Source: an uncultured virus (IMG/VR IMGVR_UViG_3300004151_000009)
Lineage: Duplodnaviria > Heunggongvirae > Uroviricota > Caudoviricetes
Virus record (IMG/VR): IMGVR_UViG_3300004151_000009
Reading direction: 5' to 3' (one strand)
Length of the DNA: 64,000 nucleotides
The notes below the pieces were generated by a model that was not told the DNA's origin, made no database searches, and saw only the letters and a list, made by a program, of their open reading frames with translations. Shown piece after piece: positions 16,617 through 48,739 of this stretch; the first letter of the stretch is position 1, and the number at the start of each line of letters is the position of its first letter. The translations under genes and the position numbers were made by a program.

Positions 16617-16970
16617 ATGGACATCTGCAACTATGAAGAACTTTGTGGACTACTGAATATAAGTCCAAGTTCCTTTCGGAGAATGGGGTGGCGTCGGCTG
16701 CCCCATTTCTTCGCAGGGGGCGGGAAGGACTTGCGCTCTGCCCGTTTCATGATTAACGATGTCATGGCAGTTTTTCAGGAGGAGGCCCATGACAATCGAA
16801 GGCTACAAGACCAAAGACGGGCAGCGGTATCGGGCGGTGTTCGAGTTCCAGGGACAAAGGCACAAGCAAAGAGGATTCCAGACGCAAAGGGAGGCCGACG
16901 CCTGGATAGTGGACGAAAGGAGACGCTTAAACTCCGAGATGGAACGGAGCTTGTGCTGCCACATTTCTGA
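16617..16970 (+). CDS. Putative excisionase / HTH protein
   Basis: YEELCGLLNISPSSFRR...LP...ARF HTH pattern; overlaps the integrase start. Confidence 0.55.
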   Translation: MDICNYEELCGLLNISPSSFRRMGWRRLPHFFAGGGKDLRSARFMINDVMAVFQEEAHDNRRLQDQRRAAVSGGVRVPGTKAQAKRIPDAKGGRRLDSGRKETLKLRDGTELVLPHF

Positions 16971-19750: not shown

Positions 19751-20104
19751 TTACTTCGCGTTTTCCAGCGTTTGTCGGATGTGGGGTGGAATGTCCAGGG
19801 TGATCTTCAGATGTCCTTCAGACATCGCTTCGATCTTGGCAGCAAAGTCCAGAACTGATTGCCACCCCCAAGCTACGACATTCGTTTTATCGACACCCTC
19901 AACAGCGGACAAGCAGAACTCCGTTTGAGTCCTAACGGTAGCCTTACGCACAGGGGCACCGGGCTTGAACTCCCAATCAGGAAACAGCCCTGTGTCGTAC
20001 TGTTCCATCCCGGTTTCTTGAGGCTCAATCTCTGCCAGGATAGGAGCATCCATCACAGCCACCTCCTCCACGACATCTTCTTTCACTTTACGCGGCCTTC
20101 CCAT
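19751..20104 (-). CDS. Hypothetical protein with N-terminal GRPRK (AT-hook-like) motif
   Basis: Starts MGRPRKVK, overlapping the portal stop. Confidence 0.55.
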   Translation of the reverse strand: MGRPRKVKEDVVEEVAVMDAPILAEIEPQETGMEQYDTGLFPDWEFKPGAPVRKATVRTQTEFCLSAVEGVDKTNVVAWGWQSVLDFAAKIEAMSEGHLKITLDIPPHIRQTLENAK

Positions 20105-21791: not shown

Positions 21792-21801
21792 CTGATTGCT
21801 C

Positions 21802-24426
21802 CTAGAGTTGATAGTCTTCAAGGGTTGCCAGGGTTTTACCTGTCTGGATATCCGACCCGAACGGGATGGGAAACTCAATCCCAAATTCTTTCTTAATCGG
21901 CGGGTTGACCATGCACTCATACAGGCGGGGTGCAAACGTCGGGATGAAGTCATCCCTAACCATGTAGATAAGTTCGTCGTGGATGAAGCAAACCAACTTC
22001 GCTTTATCTTCACAGATGTTCTGTCTGTGGGCAGTCAACGCAGAGAACAAAACAGTATCATTACTAGCAGACTGAATCGGCGTGTTGATTGCAGCCCGCT
22101 CATCTTCAGACCGTTTAGAGAAGTCCTTGGAGTTGATATTAGCAAGCCTACGAATAAACCCATAGTCTGTACGGACAAACCCCTGCTCTTTGGCTTTAGC
22201 TATTTCGTCTCTATGCCATCCTTCTAGAGCGGGGTAAGCAGTGAAGAACCCTTTTCTAAAGGCTTCTGCCTCTGCGAGTGTGATCTTAACCCCGTACTCA
22301 TCACGAGCATATGCTTGCAACTTTTTCGCCTGCATACCGAAGAGCAACCCGAAATTCACAGCCTTCGCCTTGGTGCGGTAACTCTTCATCTCAGATGCAG
22401 ACATATCCTGCGGGTTGCGTCCGTCCATAGCAATCAGCATTTCTGCTGTATGTGTGTGGACATCTTTGCCCTGCACGTACAGCCCTCGCAGAATCTCATC
22501 GAAGGCTCTGACAGCAGCCCAACGCAATTCTGCCTGTGAAGCATCGGCAGTGACGAAGGAGTAGCCGGGGTCAGCAATAATCAAAGAGCGAATGACATTG
22601 GCGATGTCTTTGTTACGCTTGGGAATCTGCTGCAAGTTGGGGTTGGAAACCGCAGTCCTACCCGTGGCTGTAGCACATTTACTGATGTTGGGATGGAACC
22701 GCCCATCAGGAAAGACGCATTTAGGAAAGCCATTGAGATAGGTGGAGTACAACTTCTGGTATGGTCCCCACTCTATGTAGGTTGAAATCAGTTCCTTGGC
22801 GGGATGGTCATCATCCAATTCATCCCGCATACGCACCAGGAGTTTCCGGCCCACCCCATCCCCACCGGCAGGGGTCTTCTCCAGAGGATTGAGATTGAAG
22901 CCTTCCTTGGAAAACAAAACATCCCGCAGAAGGTCAGTACGAGACAGTTTAAGTCCCTTCTCCCGCTGGCGTTCAAGAACTTTTCTGGGCATGAGCGAGA
23001 TGAACTTGTTCGTCTGCTGATTCAGGAAATCTGCCACCTTCTCTTTAGCGGCGGGAAGGCGTTCCTGGTCGAACAATACACCGTTCTTCTCAATCTCATA
23101 AAGCACTTCTGTCGTAACCGGATGCACCAACTTGATGTAGTATTCAGCAAGTCTCATGTCGGTACACAGACGATCTTTCAAGATAGTTGCACAATCAAAA
23201 GTAGAGGCAGTGTCACCACAAGCGTACTGCGAGTGTCTTTCGGGATTCTCTTTTGCAGCAGCAAGCATGTCAGACTTATCAACTTCCTGTGCAAACTTCG
23301 CTTTATGGTCAACACGATAAGGAGCAACTGCGGATTGAATGTCTTGCAAAGATGCTCTCTTGTACATGTCAGGATCGAGTGTGTGCATCACTGATTGGAC
23401 ATCAAGTGTGTACGCTTTGACTTCCTCCCGCTCAATGCCTAACTGACGAAAACGATGAAGGTCATAGTTACCGTTCATCATGTACTTTTTGATGGTCGGG
23501 TCGGAAAGAATCGTGCGAAGTTCTTCCACCTTTTCATCATAGTGTGCTGCTTTCTTCACAAAAACATCAACAAGTTCTTCCTTCCTCCCCACTTTACGGG
23601 GCCATTTGATAACAAGTTCATGTTCCCCTTCCACCACCTCTGTAGCCAGCCAGATATTGTATCCATTGGTCGGGCTGGTACTCACAGAGTACGAAATCAC
23701 AATGGAGTTGGGGTTGGCGAAGTCCTTCCCCTGCGTCTCCGTGTCCACCGCAACCGCTTCAGGATTTGAAGCGATTAGAGATTTAATCGACTCAACGTCA
23801 CGATAATCCAGTTCTCCTGTTTCCATCAACTGATATCCGTTCTTCATGAACTGGAACATCTGGGAGATGTCTGGACGCCACTTTGCAAACTGCTTCTGGT
23901 CACGGAGGCAGAAACCAGTGGCATACGTTGGCATGACCCAACACTGAAAGTCTTCTGAATACTGGAGCATCCCGCGACGTTTGGAGATGCCTGTCTGGTT
24001 GAGGACTTGCTTGAAAGCAGTATCCCCAAGGGTGAGGATCATTTTGGGTTGGAGGTGCTTGAGAACATCATTAACGTAAGGCTTACAATGCTCAAGCACA
24101 CTCTTCACCAGTTTCTTGTTCTGCTTCTCTTCAATGGTCAGGTGGCAACGGTGAGCAGGCATGTAATACGCCTTGTTGCCATCAAATCCGTTGGCAGCAA
24201 GCTCGTTGGCAAGTACAGTACGCTGATCCCCGGTCATTATTAGGCTCTTAGCCAAGTCCTCTGCCGATGGCCCGTCAGTCACCACCACAATTTCGGGGTG
24301 GTCTGTATTACCGAATCCTTTGAGATTGGTGAACAGACCCTCCCCGACCTTGCGACGGTATGGACCCAAAACAGGAACCTTCTCTTTTCCGATCTTTTCA
24401 AAGAGCGGACATCCCTCGCAGTGCAT
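21802..24426 (-). CDS. Family A DNA polymerase with N-terminal uracil-DNA glycosylase-like domain and 3'-5' exonuclease
   Basis: CEGCPL...C...C UDG-4-like cysteines; Exo VDTET, NGNYD, YACGD; Pol TGR..SNPNLQQIP, DASQAELR, KAVNFG, IHDEL; ATG 24426 after GGAGGG. Confidence 0.92.
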   Translation of the reverse strand: MHCEGCPLFEKIGKEKVPVLGPYRRKVGEGLFTNLKGFGNTDHPEIVVVTDGPSAEDLAKSLIMTGDQRTVLANELAANGFDGNKAYYMPAHRCHLTIEEKQNKKLVKSVLEHCKPYVNDVLKHLQPKMILTLGDTAFKQVLNQTGISKRRGMLQYSEDFQCWVMPTYATGFCLRDQKQFAKWRPDISQMFQFMKNGYQLMETGELDYRDVESIKSLIASNPEAVAVDTETQGKDFANPNSIVISYSVSTSPTNGYNIWLATEVVEGEHELVIKWPRKVGRKEELVDVFVKKAAHYDEKVEELRTILSDPTIKKYMMNGNYDLHRFRQLGIEREEVKAYTLDVQSVMHTLDPDMYKRASLQDIQSAVAPYRVDHKAKFAQEVDKSDMLAAAKENPERHSQYACGDTASTFDCATILKDRLCTDMRLAEYYIKLVHPVTTEVLYEIEKNGVLFDQERLPAAKEKVADFLNQQTNKFISLMPRKVLERQREKGLKLSRTDLLRDVLFSKEGFNLNPLEKTPAGGDGVGRKLLVRMRDELDDDHPAKELISTYIEWGPYQKLYSTYLNGFPKCVFPDGRFHPNISKCATATGRTAVSNPNLQQIPKRNKDIANVIRSLIIADPGYSFVTADASQAELRWAAVRAFDEILRGLYVQGKDVHTHTAEMLIAMDGRNPQDMSASEMKSYRTKAKAVNFGLLFGMQAKKLQAYARDEYGVKITLAEAEAFRKGFFTAYPALEGWHRDEIAKAKEQGFVRTDYGFIRRLANINSKDFSKRSEDERAAINTPIQSASNDTVLFSALTAHRQNICEDKAKLVCFIHDELIYMVRDDFIPTFAPRLYECMVNPPIKKEFGIEFPIPFGSDIQTGKTLATLEDYQL

Positions 24427-24524
24427 ATATTCCCTCCTAGTGTCAAAGGGATAATATACATCATTTTCGAGATTTGTCAAGGTAAAATGGGGACTTTTCT
24501 TGGTTTTGAAGTCAACTTCAAAAA

Positions 24525-24800
24525 CTATTTCTCTGCCACGGGCAGGGTGACGGTCTGCTCCATCTTTCTTCCGTTGGCAGTGGTGACTGCACACTTAACG
24601 CTGTACTTCTGTTTTGCCGTCCCGCCAGACAGCCAGACAACCGCTTTGGTGGTGTCGTTTGTCTGACTCATTTTTGTAATGCCTGTGGGAACAGTCCAGG
24701 TAACTGCGGAAATGGTGTCCCCTGTGACAAGACGGGCAGCCCAATCAACAGTGTAGTCCAATTCTTCTTCGGGGTCTTTAGAAGGCCATAACAGTGCCAT
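24525..24800 (-). CDS. Small Ig-like virion adaptor protein
   Basis: KDP.E.LDY.VDW...VWLSGGT...Y.V.C.VTT..GR pattern. Confidence 0.65.
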   Translation of the reverse strand: MALLWPSKDPEEELDYTVDWAARLVTGDTISAVTWTVPTGITKMSQTNDTTKAVVWLSGGTAKQKYSVKCAVTTANGRKMEQTVTLPVAEK

Positions 24801-24811
24801 ATCTTAACTCC

Positions 24812-25087
24812 TTACGCTTGAACGGTTCTATTTTCAGAGGATACAGAAACAGAGCGTGTTTCCGACCCGACAACCACGACTCTAACTTCTTCACCTAGGG
24901 TTACTACCCTGTTTTCCATATCAACCTCTGCTAGTTGTAGGTATCCAGAATCCCCCTCCCCCACTGCACCGTTGGTGCCCGACACAGCGGGGGGAGGGAC
25001 TTCTAAAGCCCTGGAAGCGGAAACCACGATAGTGATTATTCTATCGCCGCCGCCAGTAGCCATAAAAGCGGGAAGGAGAACGCTCAT
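24812..25087 (-). CDS. Hypothetical virion-associated protein
   Basis: Operonic overlap; C-terminal ExRxV repeats. Confidence 0.5.
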   Translation of the reverse strand: MSVLLPAFMATGGGDRIITIVVSASRALEVPPPAVSGTNGAVGEGDSGYLQLAEVDMENRVVTLGEEVRVVVVGSETRSVSVSSENRTVQA

Positions 25088-26280
25088 AAAGGAGTCCTAG
25101 TCGTACCATCCAAGCTCAAGTCAAAGGAGAATATGGGTGTAACACCGTCGTCTTCGTAGATAGTGATACGCTGTCCACCTTCAGCGGTTACTGTGATTAT
25201 TGCTTTATTGACGGATGCTTTTCTTGCTGAAGAAGACTCTTCCGCCGCTTGTTGTAACCAGTTCTCTTGCTCTGTCGTAAGTCCTCCAGCCCCTCCATCA
25301 TTTATCTTCTTGCCCATAGTACCTGTGACAGTGAAGGCTTCTGCTTGGCAAGACCACACAGCATCCGCTAACGCCTGTGGGGACAACTCTGTGTAAGGTA
25401 GGGCAGACCCCACCATATGCCCCAGAGCATAGGGGTCGAGATTGCCAGAAAAGGACATACCAGCAAATGCTGTCCTAGCAGGAGGTGAATCATCCAAAGG
25501 TAACATGGCAGCCGTTCCCGTAACAGTGAGCGTGGACGTAGCATTTCGTGCGGGAGGGGAGTCATTAACAGGCAGTATGTTCACTACAGGGACATTTAGG
25601 TGTATAGTGCCCGTAGCGGTGTATAGTTGGATTTCCATGTTCAACGGACGCGGGGTGGCTTCCCCGTATATAGAAACTTGAGCAGAACCATCTGCATCAA
25701 GCACCGCCCCCAACAGAGCAGTTGTGAGCATCCCTATAAGTGCCTCACCACTACGACTAGGGGGAGAATCGTCTAGAGGATAGGCATCAGCGTCACATAC
25801 CAACTCTAATTGGGAGTGCCCTGTGCGGGCAGGAGGAGAATCGTCTAGGGGGAGGATGTTTGCGGTAGCACTAAATGTTATTGCAGAGGAACCAGCCCCT
25901 TTGACGTTTGCTTCGAGTTTAATGCTACCGGGCTGCATGGTTATGGTACAGGTGCCGGTGCCCCAAGCAATCAACTGCCCGTCTAAAGAGGCAGGGGTTA
26001 TGCTCAAGGCAATAACGCCCGTGATCGGGACGCCCATCAGGCCGTTGGCGGTGGCCGTGATCGTGTTGCTGAAAACGCGCCCACACAGGTCGCCGCCTGT
26101 GATCGGTGGCACGAACCCGGACATGCCGTAGCCCACCGGCACAGCCGACTGCCGCCGGACACCCGCCCATCCGGTGTAGGCCGCGAGGCCGTCGCCGTTG
26201 AGACGGTGCGGCTCGAAGGAGGTGAACCCCGTGTCCAAGGTTTGCGCGGTGCGGAGATAGTTGCCGTTTGCGATCAACAT
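25084..26280 (-). CDS. Putative virion structural/fibre protein with internal repeats
   Basis: G/T/A-rich; four PL(D/N)DSPP(A/S)R-type repeats; LADAVW...GTMG motif. Confidence 0.55.
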   Translation of the reverse strand: MLIANGNYLRTAQTLDTGFTSFEPHRLNGDGLAAYTGWAGVRRQSAVPVGYGMSGFVPPITGGDLCGRVFSNTITATANGLMGVPITGVIALSITPASLDGQLIAWGTGTCTITMQPGSIKLEANVKGAGSSAITFSATANILPLDDSPPARTGHSQLELVCDADAYPLDDSPPSRSGEALIGMLTTALLGAVLDADGSAQVSIYGEATPRPLNMEIQLYTATGTIHLNVPVVNILPVNDSPPARNATSTLTVTGTAAMLPLDDSPPARTAFAGMSFSGNLDPYALGHMVGSALPYTELSPQALADAVWSCQAEAFTVTGTMGKKINDGGAGGLTTEQENWLQQAAEESSSARKASVNKAIITVTAEGGQRITIYEDDGVTPIFSFDLSLDGTTRTPL

Positions 26281-26283
26281 GGA

Positions 26284-27396
26284 TTAACCCCAGGCCGTCT
26301 CAAGATACCCGTAAAGGCTTGTCGCCGCAGTGGTTGCGCCGCCAGCGTACATCAGGAAGTCCAAGCACGCACCGTCGTAAATGCGCGGGAGCGACGGCAT
26401 CTGGAACATTAAATTGCGCTCACTCGCGACGCCCGCTGCCGGGATCGGAATGGAGGCAATCGGACGGGCCAGCACCAGCGCGGCGGCAGCAGACGCCCCC
26501 GTGTAGGCCGTGCCGCCAGAGAAGGTGAACGACTGCACCGAACGGATGCCCGTGTCACCGGCCTGGAGCGGGATGAAGTTCAGCTTGTTCGCACCAGCAG
26601 CCGTGTGGATGATCTGTCCGGCGGGGGGAGTCGCGTTCATCGACAGCGTGGCAATCGGGCATTTGCAACCGGATGTGCCTGCTTGGTTGGTGTAGGTGAA
26701 CTCGGTCAGGTTCGGCCCGCCAGCCGTCGCGGCGACGGTGGAGACGAAGAAGGCCCGCACCCCGGCCCCGGTGGCGTAACGCGGCAGGGTGATGGTGTTG
26801 ACCAGGGTACGCTGCGACGTGCTTATAAGGTCGGCGGACGCAATCGGATAGTACAGGAGGTGGTCCATCAACATGAGCCAGGACGGCCCATAAGCAGCGG
26901 CAGTCACAGCCGCGCCCAGGTTGACGAGGTGCTTCTGGTCGGTGGAAACGTCGCCGCCATGCCAGATGGTCGGGAAAGCACATGTCAAGGTGGGCGTTCC
27001 GGTGCTGGAGCCACCCGTGACTGCCGAGATCGTGAACGATGTCCCCGCGCTGATAGCCGTGATAAAGGCGTTGGCCGGGATTGTGACCGTGCCCGCCGAC
27101 CCGGAAACCAGCATCCCGATGGCAAGCCCGGAGGTCTGCGTGGTTGAGATTGTCGCGCTGGCGGCGGTGGCCGTGCCCGTGGTGATGTTGACCGGCGTGG
27201 AGGACATCGCCACAGCGGTCTTGGTCGTGCCGCCGAAGAGGAACGCCGGGGGCGTGCCTCCAGCAGGCAGGAGGCTGTACCAGACCGACGCAACCTGAGC
27301 AGCGGCGTTGGTCACGCGGGCGAAATCCTGACGCCACATCTTGCCTTGTGTCGTGACTTCAGACACAAAATCGTCTATTGAACTGAATCCAGCCAT
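26284..27396 (-). CDS. Putative virion structural protein (paralog of 27409-28290)
   Basis: T/A/G-rich beta protein; LPRYATGAGV, AGDTGIRSVQS, DGACLDF. Confidence 0.55.
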   Translation of the reverse strand: MAGFSSIDDFVSEVTTQGKMWRQDFARVTNAAAQVASVWYSLLPAGGTPPAFLFGGTTKTAVAMSSTPVNITTGTATAASATISTTQTSGLAIGMLVSGSAGTVTIPANAFITAISAGTSFTISAVTGGSSTGTPTLTCAFPTIWHGGDVSTDQKHLVNLGAAVTAAAYGPSWLMLMDHLLYYPIASADLISTSQRTLVNTITLPRYATGAGVRAFFVSTVAATAGGPNLTEFTYTNQAGTSGCKCPIATLSMNATPPAGQIIHTAAGANKLNFIPLQAGDTGIRSVQSFTFSGGTAYTGASAAAALVLARPIASIPIPAAGVASERNLMFQMPSLPRIYDGACLDFLMYAGGATTAATSLYGYLETAWG

Positions 27397-27408
27397 GTTG
27401 TATCTCCT

Positions 27409-28290
27409 TTAGGACCACACGAAAGTGAGTTCTGCCGCGCTCAAAGGAGTCGTGGCGGATGTTGAACGTGCGATAAAATTCAGGTATGCACCGTCTCCAA
27501 CCTGTGACAAGAAGCCCTTCTCAAGTGTAAAATCGATCTCGTTGACGGTTTGTGTGGCGTTGTAAGACGGCGCACCTGCCGCCCAAGAGTTTGCGTTTGG
27601 GTACATAGTCGGGATATGCACAACAGGTTTGACCCACACCAGGGCGAAGACGCCGCCCACCGCAGACTCAAGTTGGATTCCCGTTACAGTTGACGGGAAA
27701 TCGCCAGGATGCAACTTGATGAAAGGGTCATCCAGACCAGCCGACGAACTGTATGACGAAAGCACAGACCCCGGGGCAAGCGAGAAGCCCGCAAGATTGC
27801 GTGGAGATGTCCGCTCCATGCCGTGCTGGTTGACGTAGGTGATCGTGAAATAGGCACTGCCCGTGCCTGCGCCCTGGCCGACCAGCATCAGCCGGATGCC
27901 ATTCCCTCCAGCGTGGCGGGCATACGCCAATTGCGATATACCCTGCACGCCGGTTTCGTCGCCGTCCAAGAAAGGCACGTACATTTCGTAATCCAGCAAA
28001 ACATACGCCACCCCCGCGCTCGTCGCGGTGCCAGACATCGAGATGCTTTTGACATACTTTCGGGCCGGGGCGACATCCGGCCCGTGGTAGATACCGTCCA
28101 CCGCAGCCAGCCTACTGCACACACCGGGTGCGCTGGCGTAGTAGTTCGCAGGGGGGCCGCCGCCTCCATAAGACATGTCCACGAAGTTGTACTGCGATAA
28201 CGCGGGCGCAGTACGTCGCCACATGGAAGTCCATGCCTTCCCGGCCTCAAGAGCGCGGGTTATCTCGTCAACGGCGTTGAATCCTGGCAT
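27409..28290 (-). CDS. Putative virion structural protein (paralog of 26284-27396)
   Basis: Shared N-terminus (GF..xD......GK.W), YxNQxG and DGAxLxF motifs. Confidence 0.55.
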   Translation of the reverse strand: MPGFNAVDEITRALEAGKAWTSMWRRTAPALSQYNFVDMSYGGGGPPANYYASAPGVCSRLAAVDGIYHGPDVAPARKYVKSISMSGTATSAGVAYVLLDYEMYVPFLDGDETGVQGISQLAYARHAGGNGIRLMLVGQGAGTGSAYFTITYVNQHGMERTSPRNLAGFSLAPGSVLSSYSSSAGLDDPFIKLHPGDFPSTVTGIQLESAVGGVFALVWVKPVVHIPTMYPNANSWAAGAPSYNATQTVNEIDFTLEKGFLSQVGDGAYLNFIARSTSATTPLSAAELTFVWS

Positions 28291-28293
28291 GGC

Positions 28294-28698
28294 CTAGTCC
28301 GCTCCAACGCTCAAGGCCCCAATGGCGAACTGCGGCTGAATGCCAGCACTCACGTTCAGCGTTGCGGACAACGCACCACTCACGAGCATCGCAACGGCCC
28401 CGCTTGCGGTGTCCACCACGGCGAAATGCGTGACGGCGTTCGTCCCGGCAGTGCAAGCCCCGAACTGGATCAGCGCGGCATTGGTGAAAGTCGAGCCACC
28501 ATCAGTCCAGGCGGAAGCCTTGGTCAACGCAACACGAGCGTAGCCGGTGTAGGTGGCCTCGTTGGCAATGCTACCGGCCTCGCCCGGGTCAGCAGTGAAC
28601 AGCGCAAGGTACTGCGTGGCCCCGGTACGCCAGGAGGGGTCTTCCCCACCAAGAACCATGCTCAAAACCGCATTTTCAGTATCATTGGACATAGACAT
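28294..28698 (-). CDS. Phage virion structural protein (fibre/baseplate-like small domain)
   Basis: YLALFTADPGEAG...YTGYARVA...IQF...VTHFAV pattern. Confidence 0.65.
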   Translation of the reverse strand: MSMSNDTENAVLSMVLGGEDPSWRTGATQYLALFTADPGEAGSIANEATYTGYARVALTKASAWTDGGSTFTNAALIQFGACTAGTNAVTHFAVVDTASGAVAMLVSGALSATLNVSAGIQPQFAIGALSVGAD

Positions 28699-28741
28699 GC
28701 TAGAGTCTCCTGTTTAAGATGGTTGAAGTTAATTTCAAAAA

Positions 28742-29320
28742 CTAAAGGGCAAATATTAAAGCCTCCAAGTCAGCACAACGTCTGAACCAGCCTTTCTTGA
28801 ACTTCTGAAGCACGGGGTTATTGGCTATGATGCTGTTGTAGAACTTCCGCCTTTCCTCGATGAAACGTATGGCAAATGTCCTATCTGCTTCCGGGTTGGA
28901 ACAGATAGCCTTTACAGCCTTTATGGTTTTAGGCCCGATCTTGCCGTCAATGGCTACCGTATGCCCAGAGTAGAAGTTACAAATCTGCTGAAGGATGCGG
29001 GACGCCCTCCCGCCACCGGCGTTGATAGCCGTGTCATAGAAGACGATGGACGCAAAAAACGGGAAGGAATCAAGATCGTAGTTATCCCAGAAGAAGTCTT
29101 TGTAGAGACGAAGCGCATCCTCTTTGGTCAGATGCTTGATGTCAGCCTTATCAATGTCTCCATCACCGTCGATATCTCCATCTTTAAGAGGTAGACCAGA
29201 TAGAAACCGAAGACTGATACCCATATTAGTAGCCCCACCAGAATCTCCAGCCACATCACAATAGCCGCCTTCCCACTTGAAGACAAAATCTTGTGCGAGT
29301 TCATAGCTACTCTTGTCCAT
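28742..29320 (-). CDS. Endolysin, glycoside hydrolase family 108 with peptidoglycan-binding domain
   Basis: WEGGY..GDSGGATNMGI; DTAINAG; DGKIGPKT; FKKGWFRR. Confidence 0.9.
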   Translation of the reverse strand: MDKSSYELAQDFVFKWEGGYCDVAGDSGGATNMGISLRFLSGLPLKDGDIDGDGDIDKADIKHLTKEDALRLYKDFFWDNYDLDSFPFFASIVFYDTAINAGGGRASRILQQICNFYSGHTVAIDGKIGPKTIKAVKAICSNPEADRTFAIRFIEERRKFYNSIIANNPVLQKFKKGWFRRCADLEALIFAL

Positions 29321-29332
29321 CTTACACCCCCA

Positions 29333-29593
29333 CTATTCATTGGTGGTTTTATCAAGTTCTTCGTACTTTTTGCTTACAACCTTGAAGAGGATAGCTATGA
29401 CAGAGGTTGCCAAAGTGCTTACCTCCCCAATCCCTAGTGGGATGAAAGTCTGGGACATAAGAGAAAGATATGCCCAAATAGACAGAATGAGAGTAGATGC
29501 CAAGACACAATAAGCAACAACGCCAGCCACAAGGATTCTCGTAGACGATGGGTTGCCATTATCATCCTCAAACACCTGTCTCCAGAAGCCCAT
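29333..29593 (-). CDS. Putative holin
   Basis: GNPSSTR followed by two TM helices and a charged tail; directly upstream of the endolysin. Confidence 0.7.
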   Translation of the reverse strand: MGFWRQVFEDDNGNPSSTRILVAGVVAYCVLASTLILSIWAYLSLMSQTFIPLGIGEVSTLATSVIAILFKVVSKKYEELDKTTNE

Positions 29594-30048
29594 TACTTCA
29601 CCCCTATCTGGTCAAGTGTGTATTTCAGGTAGCCAAACATGGTCAGCCCTATTGCCGATATAGCAGTGCCCAACCACAGCACTTTCTTGTAAGCTGCGTG
29701 CATCTCTTTGACGGGGGTGGACGCCTCTTCCACGGCCTCTTTGAGGCTCTTCAGGAGGTCTTCCTCCCGCCTGATTTCGCGCTCTACAGCCAGGGCGGTG
29801 CGGGAAGAGCACTCTCTGTCATGTGTCTGGAAACACACAGAAATGGTTTCTTCATGCTCACCGATATGCTCTTTCAGTAGTTTTCGGATGTCCTCATTTT
29901 CGGGGACGGTATCCAGGGTTTCCAGTATTCTCACAACGCTGTTAGAGATGCCTGCCAATGCTTGGGTGTTTCTAGCCACCTCTTGGGCCAGGGAATCTGT
30001 AACCTCCTTCACTAGAGAAAGGAGTTGCCGTGCCTGCTCAATATCCAC
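29593..30048 (-). CDS. Coiled-coil protein with C-terminal TM helix (lysis accessory)
   Basis: Helical cytoplasmic region, KKVLWLGTAISAIGLTMFGYL anchor; 1-nt stop/start overlaps on both sides. Confidence 0.6.
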   Translation of the reverse strand: MDIEQARQLLSLVKEVTDSLAQEVARNTQALAGISNSVVRILETLDTVPENEDIRKLLKEHIGEHEETISVCFQTHDRECSSRTALAVEREIRREEDLLKSLKEAVEEASTPVKEMHAAYKKVLWLGTAISAIGLTMFGYLKYTLDQIGVK

Positions 30049-30926
30049 TACTGACCTCTCTCTAGGTTCTGAATCTTCACCTCATTCTCCTTGAGAATTT
30101 GGTGTGTCTTTTCAGTGGCCTTGAACAACGCATCTTTCATTCTAGCCACTTCCACCTGTGCCAACTGCAACAACTCTTCTGCTTGCTGATGCCTGTATGT
30201 GACATCCCGTCCGATGGTCTGTACCTCAAGAAGTCTTCCCTGCCTGTCAAAAATGCCGACCTTCTTCCATAGCACCCATCTGTTTGAGAGTTTCGTTTCC
30301 ACACTTTCAGAGGTGGGGTTCTCCAGTGTGAGGGCTTCCACTTTATCATTGTGCATGGACATGAACTTGCCGCGCATGTAATCAGAAAGATTTGTCCCAA
30401 GAACATTCCCCAAAGACATATTCAATAAAGCACAGATGGCTTTGTTGGCGAAAGTAATGGTGCCATCGGGACGGAAACGAACAATGTAGTCAGGGGAGAG
30501 GTCAACCACAGAGTTGTACAGGTCACACTTGGATTGAAGTTCCTGTCTAAGACGGTACTTCTCTGCGGTAAGCAGTAAAACAAGCGGGAGGGTCTTCTGT
30601 TCCGTCTTCAGGACGTATGAGTCCGCCCCCGCTGCTATGGTTTCTTTGGCCGTATGCAAGTCATCGTCACTAGTGAGAACAACGATGGGGATATTCGGGC
30701 ACAGGGCTTTAACGGCATCAACACTCTGTGTGCCATAACTGTCGGGAAGGTGCAGATCGACAAGAGCTATGTCAAAGCAGCCTTCCGACAATTTGTATTT
30801 AGCATCTTCCAGGGAGCGGACGGCAGAGTACATGTAGTCTTCATCCCCCAGGCTGCGCTCTAGGAGTTTTTGGACTACAAGGATTTGTGTCAGATCGTCT
30901 TCTATGTGCAGTACGCGAAAGCTCAT
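30048..30926 (-). CDS. Receiver (REC)-PAS-coiled coil signalling protein
   Basis: REC with E9-D10-D11, D57, T85, K107; PAS with SPD.IV...DG.ITFAN...IGRDVT; helical tail with no enzymatic or DNA-binding output. Confidence 0.88.
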   Translation of the reverse strand: MSFRVLHIEDDLTQILVVQKLLERSLGDEDYMYSAVRSLEDAKYKLSEGCFDIALVDLHLPDSYGTQSVDAVKALCPNIPIVVLTSDDDLHTAKETIAAGADSYVLKTEQKTLPLVLLLTAEKYRLRQELQSKCDLYNSVVDLSPDYIVRFRPDGTITFANKAICALLNMSLGNVLGTNLSDYMRGKFMSMHNDKVEALTLENPTSESVETKLSNRWVLWKKVGIFDRQGRLLEVQTIGRDVTYRHQQAEELLQLAQVEVARMKDALFKATEKTHQILKENEVKIQNLERGQ

Positions 30927-30964
30927 GCCGTCCCCTTAATGGTTTTTTGAAGTTGACTTCAATC

Positions 30965-31279
30965 CTACTTGTTTGTGGCTTCCCGCAACTCTTTGAGTCT
31001 GGTGTTCTGTGCCCTAGCAGCCTCGTACTTTACGAACAATTTTTCAGCCCAATCCTTCAACTTCGTTATGTTTTCCATAAAAATTTCAGAGTTCAGTTCG
31101 GACTCTAGAGGTTCGTCCTGCACCATCTCCTGGTACTGCGGGCGGGGAATTTCGGGAAGGTCAAGCATCGCCTGCCCGATTTCAATCTTAGCCGGGCCGG
31201 TGGTGGGCACCCCCGCGCAGCCACTAATTGAAAATGTGAGTACGAAGATAACCAACAAGGTCTTTACTAGACTTTTCAT
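30965..31279 (-). CDS. o-spanin (Rz1-like lipoprotein)
   Basis: Signal peptide with lipobox ISG-C, Pro-rich segment, overlaps the i-spanin 3' end. Confidence 0.7.
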   Translation of the reverse strand: MKSLVKTLLVIFVLTFSISGCAGVPTTGPAKIEIGQAMLDLPEIPRPQYQEMVQDEPLESELNSEIFMENITKLKDWAEKLFVKYEAARAQNTRLKELREATNK

Positions 31280-31628
31280 CTAGGACTCCTTTCTCTATCG
31301 CTTCCTTGGCGGGGATGTAAGTCCGCTTTTCAATTACAGTTGTTTTAGCAGACGCCCTATCAACCCGCTTATCACATTCAATATCCATCTTCCCAACAAG
31401 TTCCTTCAGGCTGGTGACATCAATGGTCAACTCTTTCTTCCTGATTTCAGCTAGATTCAACTTCTCCTGCAAGGACACTTTTTGGGCTTCAAGTTTGTCG
31501 ATAGATGCCTTGAGGTTGTCAATGGTATTCCCCTGCTGGTAGGCTCGAAATACCAGAAAGAGAATAACTAGGACAACTGCCGCGTACCCCATGAGTTTTG
31601 CATTTGTTATTCCGAACATACTACCCAC
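31224..31628 (-). CDS. i-spanin (Rz-like)
   Basis: N-terminal TM helix followed by a coiled coil. Confidence 0.7.
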   Translation of the reverse strand: MGSMFGITNAKLMGYAAVVLVILFLVFRAYQQGNTIDNLKASIDKLEAQKVSLQEKLNLAEIRKKELTIDVTSLKELVGKMDIECDKRVDRASAKTTVIEKRTYIPAKEAIEKGVLDEKSSKDLVGYLRTHIFN

Positions 31629-32525
31629 CTACCCTATAAGTGTTCCAGTTATCCTAGAAGATGCAAAGACTGAGGAACTGGCCGCCGTTTGCTGTCTATA
31701 ATACAAACTGAGTGTTCTTTTTCCAGTAGTCAACACGGGGCTGTGAATAGCTGCGACACTTAAATAGTCGCCACTCGCGTAGCCAGTCGCAATCGTATCA
31801 GGAAGAACTTTTGTAGCAGACACCATATCATAGACTGAAAAGATACTCTTAAAGCTGTTGTTTGCATATTGGGCATACACATTTATCCCTATGGTAGTGG
31901 CTTCTTCACCCCAAGATAGGATATCTATTCTGTCTACAGCATCAAATACTTCAATATCCACACTAGCAGTTGTGATATTGGTACGATCTATGGATTTAAG
32001 GGCACCAAACCCAACCGAACGCCTATTGTAGTAACTAAGGACGAGTCGCTGTTGTTCAGTGTCGGCCCAGGCGGGTCCGGTGATGGGGTAGGCCATCCCG
32101 ACAAGCGTCTTGGCAGCAGTGACAGAACTAACCATCACCGTGCCGGTAGCATCCAGGGTGGGGGTGTCTGTCAGAAACTCAAGAGTCGGGCTGGAAGCGT
32201 TAGACACATAGATATAGTACAGGATGTTTGGGGTAGCTCCAGTAGGTGCCAATGTGATACCAGCAGCAGGAATCTGAACCATAACGCCATTGATGTAAAT
32301 CCAGCCCCCATTGTAGCGGGACAACAGGAGGTTGGCTCCAGACTTCGTGAGCCGAACGCTTCCGTTAGGACGGAACATCGTGGCATTGGCAGGGGTCAGA
32401 AACTTGTCATTGCTAGTAGCCGCAAGAATCTCGGCAGAAGATGCAGGAACCGCCCCCGTAAACGCCTGTTTCGGGAGGGCAGCAGACAACTCCCTACGAA
32501 ACCAGTTTCTCAAATTGATAGCCAT
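31629..32525 (-). CDS. Tail fibre-like protein
   Basis: AS.AE..A...DKFLTPA fibre repeat; YYIY motif; T/S-rich C-terminal domain. Confidence 0.6.
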   Translation of the reverse strand: MAINLRNWFRRELSAALPKQAFTGAVPASSAEILAATSNDKFLTPANATMFRPNGSVRLTKSGANLLLSRYNGGWIYINGVMVQIPAAGITLAPTGATPNILYYIYVSNASSPTLEFLTDTPTLDATGTVMVSSVTAAKTLVGMAYPITGPAWADTEQQRLVLSYYNRRSVGFGALKSIDRTNITTASVDIEVFDAVDRIDILSWGEEATTIGINVYAQYANNSFKSIFSVYDMVSATKVLPDTIATGYASGDYLSVAAIHSPVLTTGKRTLSLYYRQQTAASSSVFASSRITGTLIG

Positions 32526-32529
32526 CGCG

Positions 32530-32826
32530 CTATACCCCCAGATAAGTGATTATGCCAGACATGATAAGACAGGCACAAAAGGGCCACATAAAATCGTTTC
32601 TTCCATCCAAATCGTACTCTATTGGAGTCCAACCCCGCCACCAGCGAAGGTCTTTGGAGTGTATCTCGAAGTCACGTTTCTCCCTCCCCCAATAAAAGCC
32701 AATACCCAAAGCCGCACCGGCCCACCAATTACCAGTGGAGAAGCCAACTATCAGTTGCAGCAGCAAGGCAATAGCGGCGTGAATCACGCCATTCAGAAGT
32801 AGTTTGCTTGTCATGGCTAGGCCCAT
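32530..32826 (-). CDS. Small membrane protein
   Basis: Hydrophobic segments with H, GRE and D..WP motifs. Confidence 0.55.
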   Translation of the reverse strand: MGLAMTSKLLLNGVIHAAIALLLQLIVGFSTGNWWAGAALGIGFYWGREKRDFEIHSKDLRWWRGWTPIEYDLDGRNDFMWPFCACLIMSGIITYLGV

Positions 32827-33137
32827 GTCCCAACATTCGGGGGGCGGTCAACGATCTCGACACCACAGGTCCGAACGGCGTCCGCAAGTTCAGTGTCGTA
32901 ACACCGCAAGGCAGCATAGACCCCAGGAAGAAACGTCGTGGGGGTCAGTTCGTTGCCCTCTTCATCATAGGTGCCCGGAACGTCCACGACGGCTCCCAGG
33001 TAGTGTAGGGCGTGTCGCGGGGAGGCAGTCACAAATTCCCCCTCAAATGTCAGGCCGGGGGCTGGCAGGATAGTCACAGACGCCAGTGCGTCGTACATAT
33101 CCTCGTAGTCAAGTGTTCCAATATAGAGGTCAATCAT
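32817..33137 (-). CDS. Hypothetical fibre-associated protein
   Basis: GTYDEEGNELTP motif; directly follows the fibre gene. Confidence 0.55.
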   Translation of the reverse strand: MIDLYIGTLDYEDMYDALASVTILPAPGLTFEGEFVTASPRHALHYLGAVVDVPGTYDEEGNELTPTTFLPGVYAALRCYDTELADAVRTCGVEIVDRPPNVGTWA

Positions 33138-33147
33138 TATCCGCTCC

Positions 33148-35244
33148 TTACAGGGTCAACGCCTGGAGTTGGGAAGATGTTAAGGCACGGGGGTAGTAGA
33201 CAACACTGGCAATAGTACCCTGCCACATATTTGCTGCTGTGGTGGGGCTGCCAAGACGCAATGTTGTCAGTCCTGTGGGAACACCCCCGGCGGTGTCAGT
33301 CAACACTGTGGCTCCATTGATTGTAAACTTGAAGTCGTTTGCCTTCCATGAGAAAGCACAGAAGAACTCCGTATTATTTGGGATAACCGTGGTGCCGAGT
33401 GAAACAACGGTGGAACCACCAGTGACAACGGAAGCCGTGACTGCTTTGTTGGTGCCTCTGTTGATGTATATTCTATTACTTGTGGTTCCATCATCCAAGT
33501 GAACAAGGAGTTCGTTGCTCACCGGGGCGTTCATTGGTGTTCTGGCCCGGACAACAACAGTACCTTCGGAGGTGTTAAAATCTATGCCTGACAGCAGGAC
33601 AGTAGCGACATCCGCAGCCCTAGTAACAGTCGCATACGTGGTGTCTATGTAACTGGTTGGGATGGAGCCAGACTCAATCTGCGCTTGCGAGGCATAAACA
33701 CCATAACCAACGGTGCCCGCATAAGTAGCCACACCATAAGTCGTGACAGTTGTACCATTATACATACTCAGTGTGCCACGCAATTGCGTTGAGGTAGCAT
33801 CGACGATACAGGACACAGAGCAAAGCCAGTAGCCATCCCCCGCATAACGCATCTTAGCGGTGGGGAGAGTGCCACTGCCAGCGACGGTAGCGACATCCCA
33901 AGTGGCTGCATCCGTCCCGGCAGCACTACAAGTACCAGTGGTGAGGTCAAAAAAAGCATTGACACCATTTGTCCAACCGTTATGCACCAGACCAAGACGC
34001 ACAACATTTCTCTCAGCGGCTTTCAGTTTGACGCTAAAAACCTGTAGTGTGTTAGCGGTAACGATCACTAGGGGGGTTGCCCAGGAATACGCTAAGGTTC
34101 CAGTTGTTTCACAGATTTTTTCGGCGTTTGTTGCGCCGTCCGGGCCTGTGGTAGCGTTGGGAGTGACAGTTGTATTTGTGGGGAGGTGCATGTCCACAAT
34201 GGCACTGTAGGTACCTGACGCTGTAGACGTATCACCAGTGACAGTCCCAGAGAAAGTGCCGGTAACAGTCTTGAGTCCCAGATAAGTGGTGGTTCCAGCA
34301 GTCACATGGACAACAACACCAGCAGCCCCCCCGCCGCGCACAGTCTCACCCACCTGGAAAGTGCCAGTAACACTGGTGAGGGCCAGACGCTTGGTGACTT
34401 CCAGCATATTGGAGTACGGGCACAGATTTGTGGCAGCCGCTTCGATGAGCAGCCCATCACAAGTACCGGCGGTGACATCGAACGGAAACCGTGGGACATC
34501 CACGGCCTTGCTGGTGATAAGTCCGTTCTGGTTGATATCCGTCCCGGTTGACGCCCTGGAGTATCCAACAATCGCGGGAAGGGCCTTCGCATCAGCAAAA
34601 GGCAGCACCATAGCAGGGGTCACGGTGGGAAGGTCAGGGACCAGAGAAGCCAACCCGGCGGGGTGGATAGCTAGAGCCGAAGACGTTCCATCCAACGTCT
34701 CAGCAGCAGTGGCGAGTTCCACCAAACCAGTGCGTGTCTCATTGGCAGTCCTGTCGAGAATAGCCTGGATGGACGGGGGGAAGAACACCTCTGTGCCTGT
34801 GGGGGTGTCGGTGAAATCATAGACAGAGGGGATGGTAAAAATAGACCAATCTGCAAGGGTAGCAGCCTCCCCCACCATGCCAGAGACAGCCACAACCAGA
34901 GTTGTCACAGAATAACTGGTGACACTCCCGGTCATGCCTTTCTGGTTAGTCTCGTTCCAGATGACCACCTGAATACCAGGAACAAAGGATTTTCCAGAAG
35001 CAATCGTGAGAGTCACACTGCCAGAGGACACCATAGCCAACGAGGTGGTGGAGGCAGCAGTCAGCCCGTTACCGCCGCTGGAAGCGGACAGCGTAGCCAG
35101 ACTGTTGATCTCGGTAATGACAGCATTGATCTGTTCCGTCAGGACAGGCAACGCCCCCAAAAAGGCATCCGCTTTGGTAGCAAAATTGGAGGGGTTACTT
35201 TTGGAAGGCGGATCAATCAGTTCCGTGATTTGAGCAATAGCCAT
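33148..35244 (-). CDS. Tail fibre / receptor-binding protein with C-terminal LamG-like domain
   Basis: P.NF..KADAF N-terminus; GLVELAT.AE repeat; SRAS, PRF, GLLIE..TNL, QIE.G.PTSYI.T...TRAAD, YYPRALT. Confidence 0.75.
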   Translation of the reverse strand: MAIAQITELIDPPSKSNPSNFATKADAFLGALPVLTEQINAVITEINSLATLSASSGGNGLTAASTTSLAMVSSGSVTLTIASGKSFVPGIQVVIWNETNQKGMTGSVTSYSVTTLVVAVSGMVGEAATLADWSIFTIPSVYDFTDTPTGTEVFFPPSIQAILDRTANETRTGLVELATAAETLDGTSSALAIHPAGLASLVPDLPTVTPAMVLPFADAKALPAIVGYSRASTGTDINQNGLITSKAVDVPRFPFDVTAGTCDGLLIEAAATNLCPYSNMLEVTKRLALTSVTGTFQVGETVRGGGAAGVVVHVTAGTTTYLGLKTVTGTFSGTVTGDTSTASGTYSAIVDMHLPTNTTVTPNATTGPDGATNAEKICETTGTLAYSWATPLVIVTANTLQVFSVKLKAAERNVVRLGLVHNGWTNGVNAFFDLTTGTCSAAGTDAATWDVATVAGSGTLPTAKMRYAGDGYWLCSVSCIVDATSTQLRGTLSMYNGTTVTTYGVATYAGTVGYGVYASQAQIESGSIPTSYIDTTYATVTRAADVATVLLSGIDFNTSEGTVVVRARTPMNAPVSNELLVHLDDGTTSNRIYINRGTNKAVTASVVTGGSTVVSLGTTVIPNNTEFFCAFSWKANDFKFTINGATVLTDTAGGVPTGLTTLRLGSPTTAANMWQGTIASVVYYPRALTSSQLQALTL

Positions 35245-48716: not shown

Positions 48717-48739
48717 TGTGTCTTCTCCTGTATGTCCAA

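What the first reader, a model, noticed from the sequence alone, without database searches (positions are those of the whole stretch)
29333..30961. Receiver-PAS signalling protein coupled into the lysis cassette
Seen: gene order is i-spanin, o-spanin, REC-PAS-coil, coiled-coil/TM protein, holin, GH108 endolysin. REC-PAS, the TM protein and the holin are joined by 1-nt stop/start overlaps at 30048 and 29593. The REC domain keeps the CheY-type acidic pocket, D57, T85 and K107, and there is no output domain. No histidine kinase is visible in the window. Known: lysis timing is normally set by holins and antiholins. Inference: the phage may read host phosphorelay state or a PAS ligand and pass it through the membrane-anchored coiled coil to the holin, giving signal-gated lysis timing.
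Basis: partly seen in the sequence, partly recalled or inferred. Interest (0 to 1): 0.86.

Follow-up and report, generated by a model that had tools for sequence, protein, structure and literature searches.

The report
Phage receiver-PAS sensor inside lysis cassette
An uncultured 106-kb freshwater phage carries, among its cell-bursting genes, an intact bacterial-type phospho-receiver/PAS sensor always paired with a membrane-anchored helical protein, so it may let host signals set the moment of lysis, though nothing has been tested at the bench.

Summary
On the minus strand the order is i-spanin-like, o-spanin-like lipoprotein, REC-PAS-helix (292 aa), tail-anchored helical protein (151 aa), 2-TM holin-like protein (86 aa), GH108 endolysin. 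The 1-nt stop/start overlaps are at 30048 and 29593. No kinase domain is found in the complete 106-kb phage genome.

It is not a recent host fragment. It belongs to a phage-only family of 8 full-length proteins, 33-74% identical to the window's, and all keep E9, D10, D57, T/S85 and K107.

In all 3 phage lineages whose DNA I could read (GC 41-54%), REC-PAS is followed by an overlapping gene for the same helical membrane protein family, inside a lysis cassette. The endolysin type differs among them, and so does the holin candidate in one.

Best reading, at about 0.5: a two-protein sensor that tunes holin triggering. Binding, the signal and any effect on lysis are untested, and the one co-fold gave no verdict.

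I found no description in print. This scan noted the same kind of pair on other DNA (e1-5346751).

The parts
31224..31628 (-). i-spanin-like protein (134 aa): N-terminal TM segment followed by coiled coil
   Evidence: TM-like segment at residues 4-33. Weak matches to DUF2570 (E 6.5e-4) and to phrog_739 Rz-like spanin (E 0.0039).
30965..31279 (-). o-spanin-like lipoprotein (104 aa), whose gene starts inside the i-spanin-like gene (56-nt overlap)
   Evidence: Signal-like segment ending in ISGC, then a Pro-rich stretch. No family match at E <= 0.001.
30048..30926 (-). REC-PAS-helix protein (292 aa). REC is residues 5-110 (nt 30597-30914) and the D57 codon is at 30756-30758. A linker helix spans residues 107-137. 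PAS is residues 137-247 (nt 30186-30518). The C-terminal helix is residues 243-291 (nt 30054-30200).
   Evidence: Pfam; AlphaFold2 model with mean pLDDT 81.7; Foldseek matches to receiver domains and to a REC-sensor kinase fragment, 6oaq; family alignments.
29593..30048 (-). Tail-anchored helical-hairpin protein (151 aa, 'CC-TM'): helices 3-47 and 52-148, the second running into a C-terminal TM segment at 123-141
   Evidence: mean pLDDT 86.3. A family of 19 representatives in 1.84 billion proteins. P49, C80 and R83 are invariant and H76 nearly so. No Pfam, PHROG, NCBIfam or PDB match.
29333..29593 (-). Holin-like protein (86 aa): two TM segments within residues 17-73 and a charged C-terminal tail
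   Evidence: The homologue in L004 is 29% identical (E 1e-8). No known holin family matches.
28742..29320 (-). Endolysin with GH108 and PG_binding_3 domains and no signal or SAR segment
   Evidence: Pfam; phrog_315 endolysin, E 1.3e-38; no TM-like segment.

Best explanation
The REC-PAS-helix protein and the tail-anchored helical-hairpin protein form a phage-specific, two-protein signalling unit dedicated to lysis control.

Proposed mechanism:
- REC-PAS is a cytoplasmic sensor, probably dimeric. Phosphorylation of Asp57 by a host kinase or a small phosphodonor, and/or a cue sensed by the PAS domain, shifts its C-terminal signalling helix.
- The cytoplasmic hairpin of the membrane partner reads that helix.
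- The partner's TM helix then acts in the membrane on hole formation, either as an antiholin-like or co-holin factor for the 2-TM holin, or as the membrane effector itself. This advances or delays lysis.

Shown: the domain architecture, the intact receiver pocket, the lack of a phage kinase, the conserved adjacency and gene overlap of the pair, and its place inside lysis cassettes of three diverged phages.

Inferred: the contact between the two proteins, the contact with the holin, the nature of the signal, and the sign of the effect.
For: 1. Architecture. REC, then a long helix, PAS, and a 49-residue terminal helix with no output domain. The nearest solved fold is a REC-sensor fragment of a dual-sensor kinase, 6oaq.

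2. Receiver pocket. E9, D10, D57 and K107 are invariant in 8 of 8 family members. T85 is T in 7 and S in 1; Y104 is Y in 7 and F in 1. Identity to the window protein is 33-74%.

3. Pairing. In 3 of 3 lineages with readable DNA, REC-PAS is immediately followed by a CC-TM homologue, with overlaps of 1, 4 and 14 nt. The three are the window phage G001 (50% GC), L004/G002 (54%) and L025/G003 (41%).

4. Specificity of the pairing. A CC-TM profile hit ORFs only in loci of those three records, out of all 33 loci plus the window.

Contig lengths of 94,297, 88,764, 66,363, 2,771 and 4,267 bp are listed both for REC-PAS members and for CC-TM members. The simplest reading is that these are the same contigs.

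6. Lysis context survives gene replacement. The window has GH108, whereas L004 and L025 have Amidase_2 with PG_binding_1. Only 5 ORFs are shared between the 16.9-kb L004 locus and the 64-kb window, and three of them are the holin, CC-TM and REC-PAS.

7. Domain divergence. The terminal helix diverges fastest: 26-28% identity against 54-64% for REC in the P0004-P0007 clade. The partner diverges similarly, at 19-25%. This fits a co-evolving interface.

8. No kinase. No HATPase_c or Hpt match in G001 (100% complete), G003 (91%) or G002 (58%).

9. Requirement for a holin. The endolysin has no export signal, so a holin-type membrane step is needed.
Against: No experiment exists, and no computed evidence of binding was obtained.

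L025 lacks the window-type holin and has an unrelated 108-aa TM protein instead. The pair is therefore not tied to one holin family.

The 'holin' and 'spanin' names rest on topology and position only.

Genes next to lysis cassettes are also a common site for late-expressed accessory genes unrelated to lysis.

Fifteen further CC-TM representatives (P0031-P0046, P0035 left out) come from contigs I could not read. Whether they sit beside REC-PAS or beside lysis genes is unknown, except for P0041, which is the L025 partner.

Fast divergence of the helices may simply reflect weak constraint on coiled coils.

Cultured phages with the nearest capsids, about 45% identical, have no REC-PAS detectable by tblastn.
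Confidence: 0.5

Rival explanations
1. The tail-anchored CC-TM protein is itself the hole-forming or membrane-damaging effector. REC-PAS is its direct cytoplasmic gate. The 86-aa 2-TM protein is the antiholin or a second holin.
For: The pair is constant while the small TM protein is not. Members give marginal TM-region matches to holin profiles: phrog_689 at E 0.018, phrog_1296 in 2 of 20 members, and Phage_holin_3_3 at E 0.064. Mycobacteriophage F1-cluster phages need both a 2-TMD 88-aa protein and a 1-TMD protein with a large cytoplasmic part for efficient lysis (abstract).
Against: All holin-profile matches are far below significance. A single TM helix with only about 10 residues beyond it is unlike the characterised class III holins (recalled).
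Confidence: 0.2
2. The pair is a late-expressed accessory module that acts on the host rather than on lysis. It could be a membrane-tethered phosphate sink or decoy that blunts a host two-component response such as envelope stress or defence. It would then lie by the lysis genes only because that is a permissive late-gene site.
For: It is an orphan receiver with an intact pocket and no output domain, and the phage has no kinase. Phage response-regulator genes have been annotated as auxiliary genes, for example the 'PhoB' g48 of Alteromonas phage R8W (passages).
Against: The pair keeps its place inside the cassette, between spanins and holin or endolysin, in three phages that share few other genes. 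The genes overlap with those of the cassette. PADLOC gave only marginal hits, E >= 7.7e-4.
Confidence: 0.17
3. The module serves superinfection sensing or exclusion, or a lysis/lysogeny decision, rather than the timing of holin triggering.
For: The phage encodes a tyrosine integrase at 16759-17841. T4 and N4 link superinfection to delayed lysis (listing and abstracts; passages).
Against: The sensor is cytoplasmic. There is no DNA-binding domain. The genes lie in the late structural and lysis block, not by the integrase.
Confidence: 0.08
4. It is a recently captured, decaying fragment of a host REC-PAS-output gene and has no function.
For: The PAS segment resembles the N-terminal part of multidomain signalling proteins. 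Examples are the NCBIfam Tlr1612-family c-di-GMP phosphodiesterase, model positions 141-272 (E 7.7e-23, 80 bits against a 1600-bit cut-off), and P0008, a REC-PAS-cyclase protein that is 34% identical over 85% of the query.
Against: There are 8 full-length homologues of 291-334 aa with conserved ends and a conserved pocket. Its GC content is 48.5% against 50.4% for the window. The best cellular identity is only 23-40%. No relative turned up in 185,579 species genomes with the patterns used.
Confidence: 0.03

Closest known systems
T4 lysis inhibition: holin T with antiholins RI (periplasmic) and RIII (cytoplasmic) (PMC11413866 and PMC8385771; search listing and abstracts only)
   Same: Extra proteins encoded by the phage modulate holin triggering in response to a signal, and one of them acts on the cytoplasmic side.
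   Different: There is no sequence relation. T4 senses superinfection, not a phosphoryl or PAS signal. There is no receiver domain and no tail-anchored partner.
Mycobacteriophage F1-cluster LysF1a/LysF1b (bioRxiv 10.64898/2025.12.04.692442; abstract read)
   Same: A roughly 88-aa 2-TMD N-in/C-in protein together with a 1-TMD protein that has a large cytoplasmic part sets lysis timing. This matches the 86-aa protein plus CC-TM layout seen here.
   Different: LysF1b has its TMD at the N-terminus (N-out/C-in), whereas here the TM is C-terminal. No soluble sensor is involved. The host envelope differs. I did not test homology directly.
Phage N4 gp62 lysis regulator and gp63 pinholin (PMC12642591; passages read)
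   Same: A lysis regulator co-occurs with the holin, and regulation is proposed to act on a cytoplasmic region.
   Different: The 'Receiver domain' in that paper is the authors' own name for a region of the pinholin, not a two-component receiver. N4 uses a SAR endolysin.
Bacterial REC-sensor-helix modules: dual-sensor histidine kinase 6oaq and diguanylate cyclase DgcR 6zxb
   Same: A receiver is joined by a long helix to a sensor or output domain, and the signal passes along coiled-coil helices. The D-x-T residues at the end of the PAS domain are conserved. Their role as a PAS-to-helix coupling motif is recalled, not tested.
   Different: Those proteins end in a kinase or cyclase domain. The phage protein ends in a bare helix and is paired with a separate membrane protein.
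Single-domain or output-less response regulators that act by protein contact (CheY, DivK, CpdR, RssB; recalled, except that the RssB structure 3f7a appears)
   Same: The phospho-receiver's output is binding to a partner rather than DNA binding or catalysis.
   Different: Those are host-encoded with known kinases. None is known to target a phage lysis protein.
Alteromonas phage R8W g48 'PhoB' near holin g46 and endolysin g43 (PMC8228385; passages read)
   Same: A cultured phage carries a response-regulator gene within a few genes of its holin and endolysin.
   Different: It is annotated as a DNA-binding PhoB-type auxiliary gene. No PAS domain and no membrane partner are described. It was not hit by my tblastn searches.

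Membership tests
Two-component receiver domain (CheY-like, PF00072) | Profile match above the curated cut-off | tested here: met
   54.2 bits against a cut-off of 30.2, residues 5-110. The L025 homologue scores 73.3 bits.
Two-component receiver domain (CheY-like, PF00072) | Acidic pair, phospho-acceptor Asp, Thr/Ser, aromatic switch residue and Lys | tested here: met
   E9, D10, D57 and K107 are invariant in 8 of 8. T85 is T in 7 and S in 1; Y104 is Y in 7 and F in 1.
Two-component receiver domain (CheY-like, PF00072) | Alternating five-strand, five-helix fold | tested here: met
   The AF2 model has strands 3-8, 31-36, 53-56, 81-85 and 103-106 with helices between them. Foldseek gives TM-scores normalised by target length of 0.8-0.87 to receiver structures.
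Two-component receiver domain (CheY-like, PF00072) | A cognate histidine kinase or Hpt encoded with it | tested here: not met
   No HATPase_c or Hpt in G001, G002 or G003. The only HisKA match is sub-threshold and lies in the tape-measure frame. It is an orphan receiver.
Two-component receiver domain (CheY-like, PF00072) | Is phosphorylated on the conserved Asp | not testable with these tools
   Needs Phos-tag or a radiolabel assay.
PAS domain | Profile match above the cut-off and a PAS-type sheet | tested here: met
   PAS_4 at 37.4 bits (cut-off 23.1) and PAS at 27.8 bits (cut-off 22.6). TIGR00229 sensory_box at 38.4 bits (cut-off 22.9). The model has strands 147-151, 156-160, 209-213, 216-226 and 232-241.
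PAS domain | Bound cofactor or ligand | not testable with these tools
   The helical segment at about residues 184-200 varies between clades. No cofactor motif was tested.
Antiholins and holin regulators (T4 RI/RIII, P1 LydB, lambda S107) | Encoded in or beside the lysis cassette | tested here: met
   True in 3 of 3 lineages.
Antiholins and holin regulators (T4 RI/RIII, P1 LydB, lambda S107) | Sequence membership in a described antiholin or lysis-regulator family | tested here: not met
   No Pfam, PHROG or NCBIfam family matches CC-TM at E <= 0.01. REC-PAS matches only signalling domains.
Antiholins and holin regulators (T4 RI/RIII, P1 LydB, lambda S107) | Binds the holin and shifts triggering time | not testable with these tools
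   Needs genetics or biochemistry.
Holin (the 86-aa protein) | Small size, at least one TMD, charged C-terminal tail, and a gene abutting the endolysin | tested here: met
   86 aa; hydrophobic stretch at 17-73 split by a short polar stretch; tail SKKYEELDKTTNE; the gene ends 13 nt before the endolysin start.
Holin (the 86-aa protein) | Member of a described holin family | tested here: not met
   No match in Pfam or PHROGs at E <= 0.01, or in NCBIfam. The Atlas neighbours are unnamed viral clusters.
Two-component spanin | An inner-membrane protein with N-terminal TM and coiled coil, plus an outer-membrane lipoprotein whose gene overlaps it | tested here: inconclusive
   The topology, the lipobox and the 56-nt overlap are present. 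Family matches are only weak: phrog_739 at E 0.0039 and DUF2570 at E 6.5e-4.
GH108 endolysin | Glyco_hydro_108 and PG_binding_3 profiles above their cut-offs | tested here: met
   62.6 and 55.2 bits; phrog_315 endolysin at E 1.3e-38.

The most novel reading that the evidence does not exclude
A phage-only, two-protein device plugs a two-component-type phospho-receiver and a PAS sensor directly into the lysis clock. The soluble part is REC-PAS-helix and the membrane part is a tail-anchored hairpin bearing an invariant Pro and an H-x3-C-x2-R signature. The phage would read the infected cell's own kinase activity, acetyl-phosphate level or a redox/metabolite cue, and would gate hole formation post-translationally. 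That would be a mode of lysis control with no described precedent. The unit is portable between phages with different endolysins and holins.
Probability: 0.35. Interest if true: 0.85.

Novelty: new variant of a known kind. Interest (0 to 1): 0.7.

Why it matters
Lysis timing sets a phage's burst size and fitness. The described controls are holin accumulation, antiholins and superinfection-triggered lysis inhibition. A receiver/PAS input would mean that some phages couple the lysis decision to the physiological state of the infected cell through the host's own phospho-signalling.

The idea can be tested directly with a four-gene cassette and point mutants at Asp57. It would also give a function to a metagenome-only membrane protein family. 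If confirmed, it would supply a natural, compact, signal-gated lysis switch.

Tried and rejected
- Co-fold of REC-PAS (A1) with the cytoplasmic part of CC-TM (A3, residues 1-122): no answer, score 0.01. This is evidence neither for nor against binding.
- Sequencing runs: no RNA holder is listed. Two wastewater libraries labelled RNA-Seq cDNA hold 150-249-nt pieces with 0 or 1 differing letters from the holin, CC-TM and REC-PAS junction region, but they may be DNA. This says nothing about expression.
- Foldseek of the CC-TM model against the PDB: no match.
- ESM Atlas for CC-TM and for the holin: only unnamed viral clusters.
- Context of the distant CC-TM homologues. tblastn of P0036 and P0033 against GenBank phages found nothing. 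Scans with P0032, P0034 and A5 found nothing. Alignments A3 and A4 were too divergent for the locus finder.
- Genome collection scan with A1: no relative among the pattern hits.
- Promoter and terminator scan of 28000-33500: no more sites than in shuffled sequence.
- The small hairpin between the o-spanin stop and the REC-PAS start is not unusual, z = -0.37.
- PADLOC: only marginal hits.
- Host clues: no psbA-type gene in G001-G003, so the host remains unknown. The similarity of the PAS segment to the Tlr1612 family and a Chamaesiphon hit are too weak to name a host.
- Other viral receiver hits. L030 is a 160-aa REC-helix protein in a 197-kb contig, not beside lysis genes. L031-L033 are REC-only genes beside ankyrin and major-vault-protein genes. 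None has a CC-TM homologue, and I set them aside as unrelated.
- P0035 (1405 aa, 8 matched stretches) was left out of alignment A3 as a repetitive protein.
Full report
**What is there.** The window is part of a 106,007-bp virus record (G001), which CheckV rates as 100% complete. It encodes a tape-measure protein of 2451 aa, a tail tube, a capsid, a portal, PolA, a DnaB-like helicase, a primase, PhoH and a tyrosine integrase. The nearest cultured capsids are about 45% identical and belong to Stenotrophomonas and Vibrio siphophages. There is no nucleotide match in GenBank phages.

On the minus strand between tail-fibre genes lie six ORFs:
- 31224-31628: 134 aa, N-terminal TM segment plus coiled coil.
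- 30965-31279: 104 aa, a lipoprotein-like signal ending in ISGC. Its start lies 56 nt inside the previous gene.
- 30048-30926: 292 aa.
- 29593-30048: 151 aa.
- 29333-29593: 86 aa.
- 28742-29320: 192 aa.

The 292-aa protein matches Response_reg (residues 5-110, E 2e-14) and PAS_4/PAS (137-247, E 3e-9 and 3e-6), and nothing else. The 192-aa protein is a GH108 endolysin with PG_binding_3 and has no hydrophobic segment. The 151-aa protein has one hydrophobic segment at 123-141. The 86-aa protein is hydrophobic over residues 17-73 and has a charged tail. The stop/start overlaps of one base at 30048 and 29593 are real. The names spanin and holin, however, rest on topology, position and weak matches only.

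**The sensor protein.** An AlphaFold2 model built from the 7-sequence alignment (mean pLDDT 81.7) shows four parts:
- a five-strand receiver;
- a helix from residue 107 to 137;
- a PAS-type sheet over residues 147-241;
- a single helix from 243 to 291.

Foldseek places the receiver on many solved receivers. The whole chain best matches a REC-sensor fragment of a dual-sensor histidine kinase, 6oaq. The profile search of PDB sequences gives receivers of DgcR, NtrC1, PhoP and others. The protein thus looks like the input half of a signalling protein whose output helix ends free.

The complete phage genome has one receiver and no HATPase_c or Hpt domain. Its one HisKA hit scores 17.5 bits, below the cut-off, and lies in the tape-measure frame. 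I take that hit as spurious.

**It is an established phage gene family, not a fresh host fragment.** The word-indexed search of 5.8 billion proteins gave 22 hits at E <= 0.001 among 1556 candidates. Seven of these, the window's own protein included, are full-length proteins of 291-293 aa at 44-100% identity. The other 15 are 23-40% identical; 12 of them cover only 36-49% of the query, and the three longer matches (46-98%) are to multidomain signalling proteins. The closest of these with the same architecture is a REC-PAS-cyclase protein, 34% identical over 85% of the query (P0008).

An eighth, more distant member of 334 aa (35% identical, E 9e-59) was found through its neighbour gene. In the 8-sequence alignment E9, D10, D57 and K107 are invariant. 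T85 is Ser in one member and Y104 is Phe in one. C50, C76 and the D241-x-T243 pair at the PAS/helix junction are also invariant. The gene's GC content (48.5%) is close to the window's (50.4%). No relative was found among one genome each of 185,579 species with the patterns used.

**The partner protein.** The 151-aa protein has no match in Pfam, PHROGs, NCBIfam or PADLOC beyond noise. A profile of four sequences searched against 1.84 billion representatives found 19 proteins at E <= 0.001, of which 18 are 139-189 aa long. I left out one long repetitive hit, P0035.

The 20-row alignment has P49, C80 and R83 invariant and H76 nearly so. The signature reads roughly EPTR ... H-D-x-x-C-x-x-R, and every member ends in a hydrophobic helix. 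The model (mean pLDDT 86.3) is a hairpin of two long helices, with the second continuing into the membrane segment. No solved structure matches it. None of the members looked up carries more than the name 'hypothetical protein', and all come from metagenomes. Two members searched against GenBank phages found nothing.

**Conserved context, the key result.** DNA could be read for three lineages.
- Window phage (GC 50%): spanin-like pair, REC-PAS, partner, 86-aa 2-TM protein, GH108 endolysin.
- L004/G002 (67 kb, GC 54%; REC-PAS 44% identical): Gp77-like adaptor, a homologue of the 86-aa protein (29% identical, E 1e-8), REC-PAS, partner (22% identical, E 2e-6; 4-nt overlap), an Amidase_2 + PG_binding_1 endolysin, then a lipoprotein with a C-terminal hydrophobic segment.
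- L025/G003 (87 kb, 91% complete, GC 41%; REC-PAS 35% identical): Amidase_2 endolysin, a 56-aa ORF, an unrelated 108-aa TM protein, a spanin-like pair with overlapping genes, REC-PAS, partner (14-nt overlap), then convergent SbcCD-like genes.

The L004 locus (16.9 kb) shares only 5 ORFs with the 64-kb window, and three of them are these genes. G002 has no detectable homologue of the window's portal or tail tube.

Profiles of the three families were run over every ORF of all 33 loci and the window. They found the partner only in loci of these three records. The window-type holin is found in G001 and G002 but not in G003.

Cluster look-ups list the same longest-contig lengths (94,297; 88,764; 66,363; 2,771; 4,267 bp) for both REC-PAS members and partner members. 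The 4,267-bp length is listed for a holin homologue as well. The simplest reading is co-occurrence on those contigs, but this is inferred from lengths, not from reading DNA.

A contig from another freshwater run covers 29084-30209 with 16 differences. A strain variant therefore keeps the endolysin, holin, partner and REC-PAS junctions.

**How it most likely works.** The constant unit is REC-PAS plus the tail-anchored hairpin, always inside a lysis cassette, while the endolysin type and in one case the holin candidate change. The endolysin here needs a holin-type membrane step because it has no export signal.

I therefore favour a two-protein sensor that acts on hole formation. Asp57 phosphorylation and/or a PAS cue would alter the terminal helix. 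The partner's cytoplasmic hairpin would read that helix, and the partner's TM helix would act on the holin or on the membrane itself. Phosphorylation would have to come from a host kinase or a small donor, since the phage has no kinase.

The terminal helix is the fastest-diverging part of REC-PAS. It is 26-28% identical in the P0004-P0007 clade, against 54-64% for the receiver. The partner diverges as fast. This fits a co-evolving contact but does not prove one. The sign of the effect (delay or trigger), the signal and the contacts are all inferred.

**Rivals.**
- The partner is itself the effector and the 86-aa protein is its modulator. This reading is close to the main one.
- The pair is a late accessory module aimed at host signalling.
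- The pair has a role in superinfection sensing or in lysogeny.
- The gene is a decaying host fragment. The data disfavour this.

**Comparison with what is known.** Five full-text searches found no paper describing a two-component receiver or PAS protein in a phage lysis cassette.

The one paper holding 'receiver domain' together with holin uses the term for a region of the N4 pinholin (passages). The nearest functional precedents are these:
- T4 RI/RIII (listing and abstracts).
- N4 gp62/gp63.
- The mycobacteriophage LysF1a/LysF1b pair, a 2-TMD protein and a 1-TMD protein (abstract).

Alteromonas phage R8W carries a 'PhoB' gene two genes from its holin (passages). Host LytSR control of the holin-like Lrg/Cid proteins and the PAS-containing VqmA of Vibrio phage VP882 are recalled from memory, not from a call.

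Notes from earlier agents of this scan describe the same kind of REC-PAS plus membrane helical partner in another phage (e1-5346751). They also describe single-domain receivers with helical partners and holin candidates (e1-5979755, e1-5979762). These are AI notes on other DNA. My synteny result was obtained independently on the loci above.

**Verdict.** It is a real, conserved, phage-specific sensor pair embedded in lysis cassettes. It is a new variant among lysis regulators if the function holds. The function is untested.

Noticed in passing
window 29593-30048, and alignment A3: The membrane partner family has an invariant Pro at the hairpin turn. On the second helix it carries an H-x3-C-x2-R signature (H76 nearly invariant; C80 and R83 invariant in 20 of 20 rows). 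This could be a metal, redox or thiol site. REC-PAS also keeps C50 and C76 invariant in 8 of 8.
   Followed up: partly
window 25084-28290: A GC-rich block (61.5% GC at 26-28 kb, against about 50% for the window) holds three ORFs of 398, 370 and 293 aa with no Pfam match. The 398-aa protein repeats a P-L-D-D-S-P-P-A-R-like motif, and three 21-nt DNA copies were found. They are probably exchangeable fibre or receptor-binding genes.
   Followed up: partly
window 32530-32826: A 98-aa membrane protein (TM-like segments at 3-33 and 79-98; phrog_1443, unknown function) lies three genes upstream of the cassette. It is a further small membrane protein that could take part in lysis or exclusion.
   Followed up: no
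window 48740-49699: A 319-aa HNH endonuclease gene sits between the major capsid gene (47787-48755) and the tail-tube gene (49722-50666). It looks like a homing-type insertion in the structural block.
   Followed up: no
window 21802-24594: The DNA polymerase A gene carries an N-terminal uracil-DNA-glycosylase-superfamily domain (residues 93-233) ahead of the exonuclease and polymerase domains. Its frame overlaps the portal ORF (20088-22013) by about 200 nt as listed.
   Followed up: no
window 1063-1968, 55170-56186, 57198-58379, 60619-60987: The phage carries an RNA ligase, an RlaP-type nucleotidyltransferase, PhoH and a small RF-1-domain (ArfB-like) protein. Together they suggest an RNA-repair or ribosome-rescue gene set.
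   Followed up: no
L030 5986-6468 (197-kb viral contig): A 160-aa receiver-plus-helix protein, 35% identical to the window's receiver, lies among HNH-like genes and away from recognisable lysis genes. It shows that phage receivers also occur in other contexts.
   Followed up: partly
L004 10319-10684: A 121-aa protein has a lipobox (FIGC) and a C-terminal hydrophobic segment, and lies just after the endolysin. This is the layout of a one-piece (unimolecular) spanin, in place of the two-gene spanin of the window.
   Followed up: no
window 28308-28615: The Gp80-like fibre gene next to the endolysin attracts very deep, divergent contig cover in wastewater runs (word depth up to about 1000). This segment is therefore shared by many other abundant phages.
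   Followed up: no
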